Under the pieces are notes generated by a model. It saw only the letters and a program-made list of their open reading frames with translations, searched no databases and had not been told where the DNA came from. A stretch of 64,000 nucleotides of DNA from Escherichia phage Turkey5: the sequence record PQ471516.1, one strand, 5' to 3'. A program made the position numbers and the translations under genes. Position 1 is the stretch's first letter; the number at the start of each line of letters is the position of its first letter. Of this stretch, positions 48,141 to 50,611 are shown in pieces.

Positions 48141-48743
48141 ATGACTTGCATCATCGCTCACGCAACACGTACTTCATCGTTTATTGCTGCTGACAAATTA
48201 GGTAGCAATAACTTTACAAAAGCAATCCAAACGGAACCAAAGATCTTTGAGAAAGAGTTCGATTCTCGTGTATTGGAAGAAGGGTTTATCCCAACAATTC
48301 ACAAAGATACCATGACAATCGGATACACTACATCGTTCCGTATGGGACAGTTGTTGGAACATTGTCTTGTTCTACCAGAGAAGCAACCAACCCAATCGTT
48401 CAAGGAATATCTAGTACAATCAGTAGTTCCAGCTATCCGCACTTTATTCCGTGAAGAATGGGGTTCTCGTGCCGATAATCAAGATGTAGGTGGTGGTCAG
48501 TTCATCATCCTTCATAAGCACAAGATCTATGAAATTCATGAAGACTTCTGTGTACTTGAACCAAAAAACAACATCAGTGCAGTTGGTAGTGGTGCATATC
48601 ATGCAATTGCAGCAATGGCAGCTTATCTAACAGTTGAAACTGAAACTGAAGTTCCATTGGTTGACCGTATTGGTTCGATCTTTGATATCGTCAGCGATCA
48701 TGTTGTTAGCGTGAGTTTTGAGCATGACATTCTAAAATACTAA
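48141..48743 (+). CDS. HslV/proteasome-beta-like Ntn peptidase (putative)
   Basis: N-terminal MTCII (Thr2 as in HslV MTTIV), FIAAD, and glycine-rich block AVGSGAYHAIAAMAA resembling HslV AIGSGG..AQAAARA. Confidence 0.5.
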   Translation: MTCIIAHATRTSSFIAADKLGSNNFTKAIQTEPKIFEKEFDSRVLEEGFIPTIHKDTMTIGYTTSFRMGQLLEHCLVLPEKQPTQSFKEYLVQSVVPAIRTLFREEWGSRADNQDVGGGQFIILHKHKIYEIHEDFCVLEPKNNISAVGSGAYHAIAAMAAYLTVETETEVPLVDRIGSIFDIVSDHVVSVSFEHDILKY

Positions 48744-48771
48744 TAGGTGCACTAATATAATAAGAGAGTAC

Positions 48772-48966
48772 ATGATGACATGGGATATTCTTGACATTGT
48801 TTTGCAGTTCTTGATGATTTTGATTGCAGTTGTTTGGTACAATCACATTGTTCTGTTATATAATGAAGTTCGTAGTACTAAAGCAGATAAACATTTGACG
48901 TACCACATTTCAATCATCGTAAGTGCTTCAATTGTTCTTCTAACGAACTATTTGTTTGCACGTTGA
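48772..48966 (+). CDS. Small membrane protein
   Basis: two hydrophobic helices; 64 aa. Confidence 0.45.
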   Translation: MMTWDILDIVLQFLMILIAVVWYNHIVLLYNEVRSTKADKHLTYHISIIVSASIVLLTNYLFAR

Positions 48967-49730
48967 AAGGTCAACATATGTCTACACAATCCTTTTTAGA
49001 AAAAGCAGGGGAAAAACGTTTACTGATAATCAGCGGTGCTGGGTTATCGGTTGAAAGTGGGATGGAGCCATTTCGTTTTGATGATGGCTTATGGGATAAC
49101 TTTCAAATCAATGACGTGTGTAATATTGCACGTCTTAGTTCCAAATATCATATAGTACATGCATTCTATAATACTCTAAGAGTAAAATTAGGTTCGTGTG
49201 AACCAAATGCAATGCACTATTACATCAAATCATTAGAGGATCAGTACAAAGATAATTTCTTACACATGACCTCCAATATGGATGATTTGTACACTCGAAT
49301 CGGTGGAACCGAGTTGAAGCTTCATGGTAATCTACGAGAAGTTATTAAAAACTACTCAATCAATAGTGATGACTATGAAGTAATTGACTGTGGTTATGAA
49401 CCGTTCATTCCAGAGACTGATGTGTTCTCTAAACCAAATGTTGTTATGATTGGTGAATATCATCGTTATGTGGATGGGAACCGTCTTCCTATCTACGAAG
49501 AACGAAATGAAGTGTTGCGTAGTCTTACTGAAAATGATACAGTAATTGTTATTGGGAGCAGTGATACAGTACTGGTATGGTCCAGACTAGCTGGGGCGTT
49601 ACCTTGTTATAGTGTTACTGTTAACGTCAGAAAGAATGACAATGACTTCCTATTCAATGAACGTATCATTAAGCCAGCAACTAAAGCAATTCCAGTACTG
49701 GAGCCAATCATTAAGGAAAGAATGAAATGA
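48963..49730 (+). CDS. SIR2-family protein (NAD+-dependent; no zinc ribbon evident)
   Basis: Rossmann NAD-binding motif ISGAGLSVESGMEPFR, DGLW, catalytic His context KLHGN; no CxxC...CxxC pairs. Confidence 0.7.
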   Translation: MKGQHMSTQSFLEKAGEKRLLIISGAGLSVESGMEPFRFDDGLWDNFQINDVCNIARLSSKYHIVHAFYNTLRVKLGSCEPNAMHYYIKSLEDQYKDNFLHMTSNMDDLYTRIGGTELKLHGNLREVIKNYSINSDDYEVIDCGYEPFIPETDVFSKPNVVMIGEYHRYVDGNRLPIYEERNEVLRSLTENDTVIVIGSSDTVLVWSRLAGALPCYSVTVNVRKNDNDFLFNERIIKPATKAIPVLEPIIKERMK

Positions 49731-50278
49731 GTTTGAGAGAAGTACCACTCGGAGAATTTGGCAAACAAGCAAACTTTGTATTCTGTTACTTCTTTGCACG
49801 AAATTGTAATCCATATGAGAATTACGAGTTGAATGATATTCCAGTAGTTAATCTGGTACTCCTTCAACTCCGTTGGGATGGGTTGATGGGTGGATGTGGA
49901 GGAACAGTTGAAGATTCTGATACTTCACTTGAAGCTGCGTTGAAGCGTGAAATCCAAGAAGAAATGGATTATAATATTTCCATTGAACAGTTGAAACCTC
50001 TAAAGACGTTTGAATTGTTCCCTGGTGCTAACACTCATAGCTTCAGTTATGAAGTCACATATGATGAGTTGAAAGCGATTCGTGACGGGTACAGTACTGC
50101 TAAACATGCCAGTGCTGAAGTAGCGGGTGTAAATTTATGTCACATTTCTCGATATTCTAAGGGAAAAAATCGAGAAGCAGGATATAATAATCTCATGACA
50201 CAAAACTTCATTGGAACAGCTAAGGAAGAATTGCAGTACTTAGTTGAAAATGAAAACTTACTTATCAGTTACTTATAA
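49727..50278 (+). CDS. Nudix hydrolase (putative)
   Basis: Nudix-box-like GGCGGTVEDSDTSLEAALKREIQEEMD (REuxEE core); 4-nt overlap with Sir2 gene. Confidence 0.55.
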   Translation: MSLREVPLGEFGKQANFVFCYFFARNCNPYENYELNDIPVVNLVLLQLRWDGLMGGCGGTVEDSDTSLEAALKREIQEEMDYNISIEQLKPLKTFELFPGANTHSFSYEVTYDELKAIRDGYSTAKHASAEVAGVNLCHISRYSKGKNREAGYNNLMTQNFIGTAKEELQYLVENENLLISYL

Positions 50279-50290
50279 GGGTAGAACAAA

Positions 50291-50611
50291 ATGTCATATG
50301 AAATGTTCCTCGATGATATTCGTAACCCAGGATACTATTATCCAGGTCGTTCGATGGTTGTATGTCGTGATTTTAAAAGTGCATGTAAACAAGTTGAAAA
50401 ATTTGGTATTCCATCATTTATTTCATTCGATCACGATTTGGGCGACATGAATTATGATGAAAAAACTGGGTATTCCTTCGCTAAATGGATTATTGATTAT
50501 ATGTTTGAGCACGAAATCAAAACACCTTTTGCATTTCATGTTCACAGTAGTAATCCAGTTGGTAAAGTGAATATCGAACATTACCTTAACAATGCATTCG
50601 AAAATTTATGA
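50291..50611 (+). CDS. Hypothetical protein; possible receiver-like domain (cyclic-phosphate-processing-receiver-like), speculative
   Basis: MFLDDIRNP ... ISFDHDLG ... AFHVHSSNP pattern. Confidence 0.3.
   Translation: MSYEMFLDDIRNPGYYYPGRSMVVCRDFKSACKQVEKFGIPSFISFDHDLGDMNYDEKTGYSFAKWIIDYMFEHEIKTPFAFHVHSSNPVGKVNIEHYLNNAFENL

What the first reader, a model, noticed from the sequence alone, without database searches (positions are those of the whole stretch)
48141..50611. Compact HslV-like / membrane / SIR2 / Nudix / receiver-like gene cluster
Five co-oriented genes are separated by 0-30 nt or overlap by 4 nt: an HslV-like Ntn peptidase, a 64-aa two-helix membrane protein, a Sir2 protein with GAGxSxESG...FR and HG motifs but no CxxC zinc ribbon, a Nudix-box protein, and a protein with FLDDxR / SFDHDLG / HVHSS motifs. 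The missing zinc ribbon is a trait I associate with NADase or ADP-ribosyltransferase-type SIR2 rather than deacetylases. Pairing with a Nudix (possible ADP-ribose pyrophosphatase) suggests an NAD+/ADP-ribose signalling, toxin or counter-defence module. This is the most system-like unexplained locus in the window.
Basis: partly seen in the sequence, partly recalled or inferred. Interest (0 to 1): 0.8.

Follow-up and report, generated by a model that had tools for sequence, protein, structure and literature searches.

The report
Phage sirtuin–Nudix–cREC NAD+ gene cassette
A jumbo E. coli phage carries a tight run of genes for a zinc-less sirtuin, a NUDT16-like Nudix hydrolase and a receiver-fold "cREC" enzyme that probably use NAD+ and clear its ADP-ribose by-products; comparative genomics has already described this cassette, but nobody has tested its function.

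Summary
The window comes from an Asteriusvirus jumbo phage, 99.8% identical to Escherichia phage vB_EcoM_JNE01.

The five genes are not one system.
- **Conserved unit:** Sir2 > Nudt16-like Nudix > cREC > 96-aa membrane protein > PIN-PhoH. It is found in all four Rak2-like jumbo-phage Sir2 clusters, and Nudix and cREC are fused in the Serratia phage BF group.
- **Lineage-specific neighbours:** the HslV-like peptidase and the 2-TM protein. Sir2, Nudix or cREC lie near an HslV-like gene in only 1 of 80 HslV-anchored viral loci.

The core matches the "sirtuin, 2H, Nudix, cREC, PIN" neighbourhood that Iyer et al. (2022) described and predicted to act in NAD+-dependent RNA-end repair. The window holds a reduced version: it lacks the Acb1-like 2H enzyme and the NAMPT/NMNAT NAD+ salvage genes that sit next to the cassette in relatives.

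The sirtuin does lack the four zinc cysteines, and so does its whole clade. It is nonetheless closest to E. coli CobB and matches no defence-type SIR2 NADase model, so the missing ribbon does not place it among NADases.

I found no experimental work on this cassette. Interest is moderate. It is a new member of a kind known only from comparative genomics.

The parts
48081..48109 (+). Sigma-70-like promoter candidate (TTGACA-17-TACAAT, 11 of 12) 32 nt upstream of gene A. It may be the start of the transcription unit.
   Evidence: It is the second-best match in the 7.5-kb scan. The total number of matches is no higher than in shuffled sequence, so this is only suggestive.
48141..48743 (+). Gene A: HslV/proteasome-beta-like Ntn threonine peptidase (200 aa). 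It is a lineage-specific neighbour, not a conserved member of the module.
   Evidence: PHROG 1040 at 1.2e-21. Profile search of the PDB hits only HslV, best 8e-8. Invariant T2, D18, K34, GSG. Co-occurrence is poor.
48772..48966 (+). Gene B: 64-aa two-TM protein. It is lineage-specific filler and appears paralogous to the small TM protein at 46825-47085.
   Evidence: Hydropathy. No homologue outside Asteriusvirus at this position; BF, CBB and XbC2 have a Phage_zn_bind_2 protein there.
48978..49730 (+). Zinc-less CobB-like (class III/U) sirtuin, 250 aa. NAD+-binding motifs and the catalytic His116 are intact.
   Evidence: PF02146 at 1.4e-19. PDB best hit is CobB at 2e-20. Alignment A1 shows the four zinc cysteines missing across the clade. 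AF2 pLDDT 92.8, and Foldseek top hit is CobB with TM 0.76-0.85. No PADLOC hit.
49727..50278 (+). NUDT16-like Nudix hydrolase, 183 aa, with an ATGA overlap onto Sir2.
   Evidence: PF22327 at 1.6e-19. PDB best hits are human NUDT16 and Xenopus X29, about 1e-11. Nudix box G58 G59 xV E62 ... R74 E75 xx E78 E79 is invariant.
50291..50611 (+). cREC: a stand-alone 'cyclic-phosphate processing receiver' domain protein, 106 aa.
50608..50898 (+). Gene F: 96-aa protein with an N-terminal TM segment and a Cys-containing C-terminal part. It overlaps cREC by ATGA. It is a conserved member of the gene order with unknown role.
   Evidence: PHROG 14661 at 1.6e-27. Present between cREC and PhoH in the JNE01, fEgEco12, BF, CBB, RaK2, Munch and XbC2 loci checked by tblastn and in all four Rak2-like clusters. 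Hydropathy.
50950..52389 (+). PIN_4 + PhoH fusion (479 aa): a predicted RNA nuclease/ATPase and the conserved last gene of the run.
   Evidence: PF13638 at 7.6e-21 and PF02562 at 1.5e-44. Conserved downstream of cREC/F in all Rak2-like loci. It corresponds to the 'PIN domain endoRNase' of Iyer et al..
52407..52434 (+). Perfect sigma-70 consensus (TTGACA-16-TATAAT, with TG) just after PhoH. It probably starts the next unit and so marks the downstream boundary.
   Evidence: Only one weak terminator-like site, on the minus strand at 49204-49191, lies between 48141 and 52389; none is on the + strand.

Best explanation
**What it is**
The functional unit is Sir2 > Nudt16-like Nudix > cREC. These genes are probably co-transcribed with the membrane protein F and PIN-PhoH from an early, host-type promoter. 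It is a reduced member of the jumbo-phage 'sirtuin-(2H)-Nudix-cREC-PIN' neighbourhood.

**Most likely mechanism (inferred, not shown)**
1. The zinc-less CobB-like sirtuin spends NAD+ to transfer ADP-ribose onto a phosphate or acyl acceptor and releases nicotinamide. The published proposal is a Tpt1/KptA-like attack on an RNA 2'-phosphate or phosphate end.
2. This yields an ADP-ribose derivative such as ADPr-1'',2''-cyclic phosphate.
3. cREC, a receiver-fold enzyme with invariant Asp and His residues, opens or removes the phosphate.
4. The NUDT16-like Nudix splits the ADP-ribose pyrophosphate to AMP plus phosphoribose, or strips ADP-ribose from RNA ends as human NUDT16 does.
5. In relatives, the adjacent NAMPT and NMNAT would recycle the released nicotinamide. 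This phage has lost them at this locus.

The HslV-like peptidase and the 2-TM protein are neighbours only.

**Confidence split:** membership of this neighbourhood about 0.9; the RNA-end or 2'-phosphate mechanism about 0.35.
For: - **Conserved order.** SIR2 > Nudt16L > cREC > F > PhoH occurs in 4 of 4 Rak2-like Sir2 clusters, 16 loci, and in JNE01, fEgEco12, BF, CBB, RaK2, Munch and XbC2.
- **Gene fusion.** Nudix and cREC are fused in BF, CBB and XbC2, which ties the two enzymes to one pathway.
- **Recurrent Sir2-cREC adjacency.** It appears in unrelated rV5/phAPEC8-like phages, there flanked by RNA ligase, an AAA_33 kinase and a calcineurin-like phosphoesterase. It also appears in a metagenomic contig.
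- **NAMPT link.** NAMPT lies within 5.5 kb of this Sir2 clade in 3 Rak2-like clusters and in 3 further independent clusters (L139, L144, L167; directly adjacent only in L139 and L144). This fits an enzyme that releases nicotinamide.
- **Active sites look intact.** The catalytic His is kept in all 17 aligned sirtuins; the NAD+-binding FR motif is altered in the RaK2-type members. The catalytic His is also kept in 136 of 137 nearest representatives. The Nudix box is invariant. The cREC Asp/His set is invariant across 45 sequences.
- **Biochemical precedent.** Human NUDT16 removes ADP-ribose from RNA phosphate ends modified by TRPT1 (Tpt1 family) and PARP10 (PMC6582358).
- **Published prediction.** The same neighbourhood and mechanism are proposed in PMC9503650 section 3.7.3.
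- **Translational coupling.** ATGA overlaps link Sir2/Nudix and cREC/F.
Against: - No experiment on any member was found.
- The window has no RNA ligase, kinase, phosphoesterase, 2H enzyme or tRNA gene. The RNA-repair context is therefore borrowed from other phage groups.
- The '2H' neighbour in relatives fits the anti-CBASS Acb1 family better (56 bits) than the RNA-ligase-type 2H family (22 bits, below its cut-off). This weakens the RNA-repair reading of the jumbo-phage version.
- cREC usually occurs without Sir2: 72 of 80 cREC-anchored viral loci lack it, and phage XaC1 keeps cREC, F and PhoH without Sir2 or Nudix. Its substrate therefore need not be made by the sirtuin.
- The sirtuin is closest to the protein deacylase CobB.
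- PIN nucleases are metal-dependent and, from general knowledge, do not make 2',3'-cyclic phosphate ends.
Confidence: 0.4

Rival explanations
1. Counter-defence module. cREC and the Nudix degrade host-made NAD+-derived immune signals or toxic products, such as ADPR-1''-phosphate from RES-type NAD+ degraders, ADPr>p or cyclic ADPR isomers. The cassette would belong to an anti-defence island, and the sirtuin would have an accessory or separate NAD+-linked role.
For: - In relatives the cassette sits directly beside two kinds of module that have been validated experimentally in other phages. One is NAMPT+NMNAT, the NARP2 pathway (NARP2 function in bioRxiv 10.1101/2024.02.11.579819). The other is an Acb1-family 2H phosphodiesterase (PF23474, 3.6e-15).
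- cREC is mostly found without Sir2, and XaC1 keeps cREC without Sir2 or Nudix. This suggests a substrate of host origin.
- ADPR-1P is now known to be produced by a defence system and countered by a phage phosphatase (bioRxiv 10.64898/2026.01.28.702374).
- A host-type promoter candidate upstream fits early expression.
Against: - The known ADPR-1P phosphatase, Adpp, is a Macro-domain protein, not cREC.
- No anti-defence activity has been reported for cREC, this Nudix or this sirtuin.
- A phage-encoded NAD+-consuming sirtuin is hard to fit into a pathway that exists to protect NAD+.
- Island context is only guilt by association, and the window itself lacks both the NARP2 and Acb1-like genes.
Confidence: 0.3
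2. Host-takeover protein deacylase. The sirtuin acts like CobB and removes acyl groups from host or phage proteins. The Nudix destroys the O-acyl-ADP-ribose by-product. cREC acts on something unrelated.
For: - The closest relatives by sequence and fold are the bona fide deacylases CobB, SIRT5 and Af1/Af2.
- The catalytic His, the NAD+ motifs and the (F/I)GE substrate-loop motif are retained.
- The rV5- and T5-like members and some jumbo members keep the class III Y-x-x-R motif.
Against: - In the window protein, and variably across the jumbo clade, the Arg of Y-x-x-R is replaced: Y64-x-x-L67.
- The zinc module that shapes the peptide cleft is rebuilt without its cysteines.
- This reading does not explain the conserved linkage to cREC or the Nudix-cREC fusion.
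- No Macro or ARH-type OAADPr hydrolase is present at the locus.
Confidence: 0.15
3. One reading: all five genes (HslV-like peptidase, 2-TM protein, Sir2, Nudix, receiver-like protein) form one integrated NAD+/ADP-ribose signalling or toxin system.
For: - The five genes are tightly packed and co-oriented in the window.
- One promoter candidate lies upstream of gene A and no + strand terminator-like site occurs before PhoH.
- The arrangement is conserved within Asteriusvirus.
- HslV-like and this Sir2 also share a genome in T5-like phages.
Against: - HslV-like is absent from the locus in RaK2, BF, CBB and XbC2.
- It lies three called ORFs upstream of Sir2 in Munch-like phages.
- It is 10 kb away on the other strand in T5-like phages.
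- Only 1 of 80 HslV-anchored viral loci has Sir2, Nudix or cREC nearby, and that one is phage 121Q itself.
- The 2-TM gene has no homologue outside Asteriusvirus and its slot holds an unrelated zinc-binding protein elsewhere.
Confidence: 0.05

Closest known systems
Jumbo-phage 'sirtuin + 2H + Nudix + cREC + PIN endoRNase' neighbourhood (Iyer, Burroughs, Anantharaman, Aravind 2022, Viruses 14:1977, section 3.7.3; prototype Serratia phage BF, AQW88637.1). cREC was defined in Iyer et al. 2021, Viruses 13:63.
   Same: The sirtuin clade, the Nudt16-like Nudix, cREC, the downstream PIN-PhoH and the gene order are the same. The window proteins are 45-69% identical to those of BF. The phage group (Rak2-like jumbo phages) is the same.
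   Different: - The window lacks the 2H gene and the adjacent NAMPT/NMNAT.
- Nudix and cREC are separate genes here, as in RaK2 and Munch, not fused as in BF.
- An HslV-like peptidase and a 2-TM gene sit immediately upstream.
- The published function (a KptA-like role in RNA repair) is a prediction only.
E. coli CobB / human SIRT5 (class III sirtuin protein deacylases)
   Same: - Pfam SIR2 fold with GAGxSxxSG...FR, N100/D102 and the catalytic His-Gly.
- CobB is the best PDB match by sequence (2e-20).
- CobB is the best PDB match by fold (TM 0.76-0.85).
   Different: - All four zinc cysteines are lost and there is a 7-residue deletion.
- The jumbo clade carries an insertion of about 9 residues after the GE motif.
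- TQNID is changed to TSNMD.
- The Arg of Y-x-x-R is replaced by Leu in the window protein.
- The genomic context is phage NAD+/RNA-end enzymes rather than metabolism.
Tpt1/KptA/TRPT1 RNA 2'-phosphotransferase with its ADPr>p-processing partners (2H, Macro), and NUDT16 as an eraser of phosphate-end RNA ADP-ribosylation
   Same: This is the proposed working analogy: NAD+-dependent transfer to an RNA phosphate that releases nicotinamide and ADPr>p, followed by clean-up. NUDT16 is shown to reverse TRPT1-made RNA ADP-ribosylation.
   Different: There is no sequence or fold relation between sirtuins and the Tpt1 ART fold. No activity on RNA has been shown for any sirtuin of this clade. The resemblance is functional inference only.
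Defence-type SIR2 NADases (ThsA, DSR1/2, SIR2-HerA, SIR2-APAZ/pAgo)
   Same: A SIR2-superfamily Rossmann domain that uses NAD+.
   Different: No PADLOC defence SIR2 model matches at E<=0.01. No defence SIR2 structure appears among the top 50 Foldseek PDB hits. The gene is phage-encoded and has no sensor or partner domains.
Two-component receiver (REC/CheY-like) domains
   Different: - Only four strands are predicted, so there is no strand 5/helix 5 and no conserved Lys.
- Two invariant His (H48, H85) and an invariant NPxG motif are added.
- According to the literature it is never linked to histidine kinases.
- It is predicted to be a phosphoesterase, not a phospho-acceptor.
NARP2 (phage NAMPT + NMNAT NAD+ reconstitution pathway) and Acb1 (anti-CBASS 2H phosphodiesterase)
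   Same: They are immediate neighbours of the Sir2-Nudix-cREC cassette in most Rak2-like relatives: BF, CBB, XbC2 and Munch carry both, while RaK2 has NAMPT/NMNAT but no 2H gene at the locus. They share the NAD+/nucleotide-signal theme.
   Different: Neither is present in the window. No Asteriusvirus appears among the NAMPT hits of at least 34% identity. They are separate, independently validated modules.

Membership tests
Sirtuin (Pfam SIR2 PF02146), class III/U CobB-like | Pfam score above the gathering threshold, with NAD+-binding GAGxSxxSG...FR and the catalytic His | tested here: met
   71.2 bits against a cut-off of 24. G20, G22, S24, S27, G28, N100, D102, H116 and G117 are invariant in alignment A1.
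Sirtuin (Pfam SIR2 PF02146), class III/U CobB-like | Four-cysteine zinc ribbon in the small domain | tested here: not met
   The CobB cysteines (C...CHCC) align to non-Cys residues and a 7-residue gap. The window has 1 Cys between H116 and P153, against 4 in CobB. The loss is clade-wide: 24 of the top 30 nearest representatives are zinc-less.
Sirtuin (Pfam SIR2 PF02146), class III/U CobB-like | Fold similarity to solved sirtuins | tested here: met
   AF2 pLDDT 92.8. Foldseek top hits are CobB (E 1e-16, TM 0.76-0.85), followed by Af1/Af2 and SIRT5.
Sirtuin (Pfam SIR2 PF02146), class III/U CobB-like | NAD+-dependent lysine deacylase activity | not testable with these tools
   This needs an enzyme assay.
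Defence-type SIR2 NADase (ThsA, DSR, SIR2-HerA, pAgo-SIR2) | Match to defence SIR2 profiles, or presence of the associated sensor/partner domains | tested here: not met
   No PADLOC family matches at E<=0.01. The protein is single-domain, 250 aa. The neighbours are Nudix and cREC, not SLOG, HerA or pAgo.
Nudix hydrolase, NUDT16-like (PF22327) | Nudix box GX5EX7REUXEEXGU-type motif and family score above threshold | tested here: met
   - 70.9 bits against a cut-off of 27.
- GGTVEDSDTSLEAALKREIQEE, with R74, E75, E78 and E79 invariant.
- Best PDB hits are NUDT16 and X29, about 1e-11.
Nudix hydrolase, NUDT16-like (PF22327) | Substrate: ADP-ribose conjugates, IDP, or RNA caps | not testable with these tools
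   Only the precedent from human NUDT16 is available.
cREC (PF20274, cyclic-phosphate processing receiver domain) | Family score above threshold, conserved acidic residues and a receiver-like fold | tested here: met
   - 81.7 bits against a cut-off of 27.
- D8, D9, D47 and D49 are invariant.
cREC (PF20274, cyclic-phosphate processing receiver domain) | Cyclic-phosphate phosphoesterase activity | not testable with these tools
   The activity is predicted only, and the literature states it is experimentally uncharacterised. No solved homologue exists.
Canonical two-component receiver domain | Five-stranded fold with the conserved Lys after strand 5, and a histidine-kinase partner | tested here: not met
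   The model has four strands and ends with helix 89-105. No invariant Lys is present at that position. No kinase gene is found among the neighbours.
HslV / proteasome-beta Ntn threonine peptidase | N-terminal Thr nucleophile, Asp17, Lys33 and Gly-Ser-Gly, with similarity to HslV | tested here: met
   M1-T2 is invariant, as are D18, K34 and G149-S-G151. The profile hits 14 PDB sequences, all HslV, best 8e-8. PHROG 1040 at 1.2e-21.
HslV / proteasome-beta Ntn threonine peptidase | A partner HslU-type ATPase | not tested
   None is adjacent in the window. Use of host HslU is possible but was not examined.
Iyer et al. type-1 jumbo-phage sirtuin neighbourhood | [quoted passage not shown] | tested here: met
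   All four are present in order at 48978-52389. The order is conserved in 4 of 4 Rak2-like clusters.
Iyer et al. type-1 jumbo-phage sirtuin neighbourhood | A linked 2H phosphoesterase | tested here: not met
   tblastn with BF gp110 finds nothing in the 64-kb window at E<=0.01. RaK2 also lacks it at the locus.
NARP2 NAD+ reconstitution pathway | NAMPT plus NMNAT genes | tested here: not met
   No NAMPT or NMNAT homologue is in the window. No Asteriusvirus record appears among the 60 best NAMPT hits, which run down to 34% identity. The whole genome was not scanned exhaustively.

The most novel reading that the evidence does not exclude
The zinc-less CobB-like sirtuin is the first sirtuin that acts on nucleic-acid phosphate ends or on a small-molecule ADP-ribose acceptor, as a convergent analogue of Tpt1/KptA. 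With the NUDT16-like Nudix and cREC (the first enzymatically active receiver-fold phosphoesterase), it forms a phage pathway that repairs or re-marks RNA cut by host defences, or that dismantles ADP-ribose-derived immune signals or toxins. This would be a new enzymatic counter-defence route, distinct from NARP1/2, Acb1, the Tad sponges and RyDEP.
Probability: 0.25. Interest if true: 0.8.

Novelty: new member of a known kind. Interest (0 to 1): 0.45.

Why it matters
NAD+ and ADP-ribose chemistry is now central to the phage-bacterium arms race. Hosts deplete NAD+, make cyclic ADPR signals and produce ADPR-1P. Phages answer with NARP1/2, sponges, Macro phosphatases and RyDEP.

This sirtuin clade occurs in roughly a thousand sequenced phages, including T5-like, rV5-like and Rak2-like jumbo phages (974 records). 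Neither it nor cREC has ever been assayed.

Showing what the sirtuin transfers ADP-ribose to, and what cREC hydrolyses, would do three things:
- assign a function to a widespread phage gene set;
- test a long-standing comparative-genomics prediction;
- possibly add a new activity to both the sirtuin and the receiver folds.

E. coli is the host and the enzymes are small, so the question is directly testable.

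Tried and rejected
- **Defence profiles.** A PADLOC scan of all seven proteins gave no meaningful hit. The only matches were a Nudix-box-only match and P-loop matches for PhoH.
- **Solved cREC homologue.** Sequence and profile searches of the PDB found nothing.
- **RNA features.** Rfam and tRNA scans of the locus and the window found nothing.
- **Missing pathway genes.** tblastn of the window for NAMPT, NMNAT, 2H, RNA ligase, kinase and phosphoesterase found none.
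- **Literature.** Searches for experimental work on phage sirtuins, cREC or PF20274 returned only the two comparative-genomics papers.
- **cREC as the anti-aRES phosphatase.** Rejected, because that enzyme (Adpp) is a Macro-domain protein.
- **Neighbours of cREC.** De novo clustering across 80 cREC-anchored viral loci found no dominant partner beyond the Rak2-like set. A few AAA_33 kinases and calcineurin-like phosphoesterases turned up; the rest were replication genes or unknowns.
- **Split-off zinc ribbon.** I considered whether the small zinc-binding protein upstream of Sir2 in BF-type phages is the sirtuin's detached zinc ribbon. It belongs to its own Pfam family (Phage_zn_bind_2) and is absent from the window, so I did not pursue this.
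- **Not done.** I did not fetch the whole 355-kb genome to exclude distant copies of salvage or RNA-repair genes.

Full report
**Source of the window.** The queried region (48141-50611) is 99.8% identical to Escherichia phage vB_EcoM_JNE01, a 355-kb jumbo phage of the genus Asteriusvirus. It is about 76% identical to other Asteriusvirus-like E. coli phages. GC content is about 35% throughout. In JNE01 all of these genes are annotated 'hypothetical protein'. In sister phages three of them are labelled Sir2-like, NUDIX hydrolase and protease.

**Checking the observation.** The ORF table and the junction sequences confirm five co-oriented genes.
- A to B: 28-nt gap.
- B to Sir2: 11-nt gap if the Sir2 start is ATG 48978. 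That start has an AAAGGT ribosome-binding site and matches the N-termini of homologues. The TTG at 48963 used by the mechanical ORF call is probably not the start.
- Sir2 to Nudix: ATGA overlap.
- Nudix to cREC: 12-nt gap.

- **Gene A** matches PHROG 1040 'peptidase HslV family' at 1.2e-21. A 40-sequence family profile hits 14 distinct PDB sequences, all HslV, best 8e-8. The family keeps Met1-Thr2, Asp18, Lys34 and Gly149-Ser-Gly151, the catalytic set of HslV and proteasome-beta peptidases.
- **Gene B** has two hydrophobic segments.
- **The sirtuin** scores 71 bits on PF02146.
- **The Nudix** scores 71 bits on PF22327 (Nudt16-like). Its best solved relatives are human NUDT16 and Xenopus X29, and its REIQEE box is intact.

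**The zinc ribbon.** I aligned the window sirtuin with E. coli CobB (taken from MG1655) and 15 phage relatives.
- CobB's four zinc cysteines fall on non-cysteine residues and a 7-residue deletion in every jumbo-phage, rV5-like and T5-like member. One distant homologue, P0019, keeps CxxC...CxxC.
- A search of 1.84 billion representative proteins gave 3028 relatives. Of the 137 best full-length ones, 65 have at most one Cys between the catalytic His and the KP motif, and 66 have four or more. Among the top 30, 24 are zinc-less. The catalytic His is kept in 136 of 137.

The missing ribbon is therefore a real trait of a large clade. It does not move the protein into the NADase-type SIR2 families.
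- The closest sequence match in the PDB is CobB at 2e-20.
- The closest folds are CobB (TM 0.76-0.85), then Af1/Af2 and SIRT5.
- No PADLOC defence SIR2 model matches.

**Which genes belong together.** I compared the locus in ten annotated phages (with tblastn). I also compared 240 IMG/VR loci anchored on cREC, Sir2 or the HslV-like protein (analysed).

The 80 Sir2-anchored loci fall into 27 clusters at 70% identity.
- All four Rak2-like jumbo-phage clusters (16 loci) show SIR2 > Nudt16-like > cREC > F > PIN-PhoH.
- In the BF/CBB/XbC2 group (10 loci) Nudix and cREC are one polypeptide.
- F, the 96-aa membrane protein at 50608-50898 that overlaps cREC by ATGA, and PIN-PhoH at 50950-52389 are as conserved as the three enzymes.

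The HslV-like gene behaves differently.
- It is adjacent only in Asteriusvirus.
- It sits three called ORFs upstream of Sir2 in Munch-like phages.
- It is missing from the locus in RaK2, BF, CBB and XbC2. The RaK2 'protease' at that position is the ClpP-like protein instead.
- In T5-like phages it lies 10 kb away on the opposite strand.
- Of 80 HslV-anchored viral loci, only one has Sir2, Nudix or cREC within 8 kb. That one is phage 121Q, an Asteriusvirus.

The 2-TM gene B has no homologue outside Asteriusvirus. In BF-type phages its slot holds a Phage_zn_bind_2 protein. The five-gene system is therefore not supported. A three-enzyme core with two conserved downstream genes is.

**What relatives carry that the window lacks.** Between the minus-strand Ig-domain structural gene and Sir2, the relatives examined (BF, CBB, XbC2, Munch and RaK2) encode two further sets of genes.
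- A bifunctional NMNAT and a NAMPT. Together these form the NARP2 NAD+ reconstitution pathway, which has been shown experimentally to defeat NAD+-depleting defences.
- A 148-aa 2H phosphoesterase, present in BF, CBB, XbC2 and Munch-like phages but not at the RaK2 locus. It matches the Acb1 anti-CBASS family at 56 bits, well above the cut-off of 27. It matches the RNA-ligase-type 2H family at only 22 bits, below that family's cut-off.

None of these genes is in the 64-kb window. No Asteriusvirus appears among the 60 best phage NAMPT hits, which include every other Rak2-like lineage. The window therefore holds a reduced version of a larger NAD+-centred island.

**Other contexts of the same sirtuin clade.**
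- In rV5/phAPEC8-like phages the order is calcineurin-like phosphoesterase, RNA ligase, cREC, AAA_33 kinase, Sir2.
- In T5-like phages Sir2 stands alone near nrdD and phoH.
- In three further independent clusters NAMPT lies within a few kb of Sir2, directly adjacent in two of them.
- A 42%-identical metagenomic homologue is followed directly by cREC.
- cREC itself is far more widespread than the sirtuin, with 577 confirmed viral loci. It has Sir2 nearby in only 8 of the best 80. Phage XaC1 keeps cREC, F and PhoH without Sir2 or Nudix.

**Literature.** The cREC domain was defined, and predicted to process cyclic phosphates, by Iyer et al. 2021 (PMC7824862). Iyer et al. [quoted passage not shown] They propose that the sirtuin acts like KptA/Tpt1 on RNA 2'-phosphates, with the other enzymes processing cyclic phosphates or ADPr>p. 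They state that cREC is experimentally uncharacterised. I found no later experimental work. Two useful precedents exist.
- Human NUDT16 removes ADP-ribose from RNA phosphate ends modified by TRPT1 and PARP10 (PMC6582358).
- ADPR-1''-phosphate is a defence-generated metabolite that phages counter with a Macro-domain phosphatase, not with cREC.

**Mechanism.**

*Shown:*
- The gene order is conserved.
- Nudix and cREC are fused in one lineage.
- The catalytic motifs of all three enzymes are retained.
- Start and stop codons overlap (ATGA), a pattern consistent with translational coupling.

*Suggested:*
- One transcription unit runs from a TTGACA-17-TACAAT site at 48081-48109 to just before a perfect consensus promoter at 52407-52434, with no + strand terminator-like site between them. 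The overall promoter count is at chance level.

*Inferred:*
- The sirtuin spends NAD+ to put ADP-ribose on a phosphate or acyl acceptor.
- cREC resolves a phosphate or cyclic phosphate on the product.
- The Nudix cleaves the ADP-ribose pyrophosphate.
- In relatives, NAMPT/NMNAT recycle the released nicotinamide.

The RNA-end reading rests mainly on the rV5-type context and on the NUDT16/TRPT1 precedent. Three things weaken it for this phage: RNA ligase, kinase and tRNA genes are absent from the window, the '2H' neighbour fits Acb1, and cREC occurs largely independently of Sir2. These points favour the counter-defence rival, in which cREC and the Nudix act on host-made ADP-ribose derivatives. 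The CobB-like deacylase reading remains possible from homology alone.

My probabilities are about 0.9 for membership of the described neighbourhood, 0.35-0.4 for the RNA-end or ADP-ribosyl-transfer mechanism, 0.3 for counter-defence, 0.15 for deacylase, and 0.05 for an integrated five-gene system.

**Novelty and interest.** The locus is a reduced member of a kind already described by comparative genomics, so a specialist would not be surprised by its existence. The biochemistry of this sirtuin clade (974 phage records) and of cREC is entirely untested. The system is also tractable: the host is E. coli and the enzymes are small. I rate interest at 0.45. The most novel reading still open is a sirtuin acting on nucleic-acid or small-molecule phosphate acceptors, paired with an enzymatically active receiver fold, as a new counter-defence or RNA-repair route. 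I give it about 0.25 probability, and it would deserve about 0.8 if true.

Noticed in passing
L003:4940-5386 (Serratia phage BF gp110); L006:4839-5285 (Munch_141): The '2H' gene next to Sir2 in non-Asteriusvirus relatives matches the anti-CBASS Acb1 family (PF23474, 3.6e-15, 56 bits). It scores only 22 bits, below threshold, on the 2'-5' RNA ligase family. This suggests an anti-CBASS role rather than RNA repair. The gene is absent from the window.
   Followed up: partly
L003:1471-4637; L005:1462-5120; L007:845-4053: NMNAT and NAMPT (the NARP2-type NAD+ reconstitution pathway) lie upstream of the Sir2 cassette, within 1-3 kb, in BF, RaK2, XbC2, CBB, Munch and XaC1. They are missing from the window, and no Asteriusvirus appears among the best NAMPT hits. 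The lineage apparently lost NAD+ salvage while keeping an NAD+-consuming sirtuin.
   Followed up: partly
L003:5397-5612 (BF gp111); L004:5369-5611; L007:6394-6612: A 71-80-aa CxxC...CxxC protein (PF23903 Phage_zn_bind_2, 1e-22) sits immediately upstream of the zinc-less sirtuin in BF-type phages. It occupies the slot taken by the 2-TM gene in the window. Any relation to the sirtuin's lost zinc module is unknown.
   Followed up: no
window 46089-46751 and about 42649-42864: A ClpP-like protease (PF00574 at 1.6e-4; PHROG 26024 'protease' at 1e-73) lies upstream, and a second weakly similar ClpP-like segment lies further upstream. Together with the HslV-like gene, the region encodes two or three protease-like proteins.
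   Followed up: no
window 47124-48032 (minus strand): This is the only minus-strand gene in the stretch examined (46-53 kb). It encodes a 302-aa protein with two Big_2 Ig-like domains, annotated in relatives as a structural, major tail or Ig-domain protein. It is a conserved synteny marker upstream of the NAD+ island in BF, RaK2, XbC2 and 121Q, but it is absent from the fEgEco12 locus.
   Followed up: partly
window 46825-47085 and 48772-48966; L002:5785-5976: Three small 2-TM proteins (86, 64 and 63 aa) share an ...LY.EFRNG...-type loop motif and look paralogous. Small membrane proteins are scattered through this part of Rak2-like genomes.
   Followed up: no
window 50950-52389 compared with L001 and L002: The window's PIN-PhoH is only 87% identical to that of JNE01 but 91% identical to that of fEgEco12, whereas genes A-F are 99.5-100% identical to JNE01. 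JNE01 also has a 426-aa gene right after PhoH that the window lacks. This points to a recombination or mosaic boundary near 50.9 kb.
   Followed up: no
L005:5707-6441 (RaK2 Sir2) and P0012: The RaK2-type sirtuin reads GNGLSMDSGFDLYD where the others read GAGLSxESGxxxFR. It has lost the conserved Phe-Arg of the NAD+ pocket, so it may be inactive or altered.
   Followed up: no
L008 (Xanthomonas phage XaC1) 7998-9996: XaC1 keeps cREC, the F-like ORF slot and PhoH, and has NMNAT/NAMPT upstream. It has no Sir2 or Nudt16-like Nudix detectable by tblastn. This is a natural 'cREC without sirtuin' variant.
   Followed up: partly
window 45849-45876 and 52761-52782: Strong terminator-like hairpins (12 and 9 bp stems followed by T-runs) bracket the wider region. 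The first is bidirectional.
   Followed up: no
L010 (Salmonella phage 100268_sal2) 11998-13660: This T5-like phage carries two genes annotated as Sir2 (283 aa and 171 aa) separated by two small ORFs. It may be a split or duplicated sirtuin.
   Followed up: no
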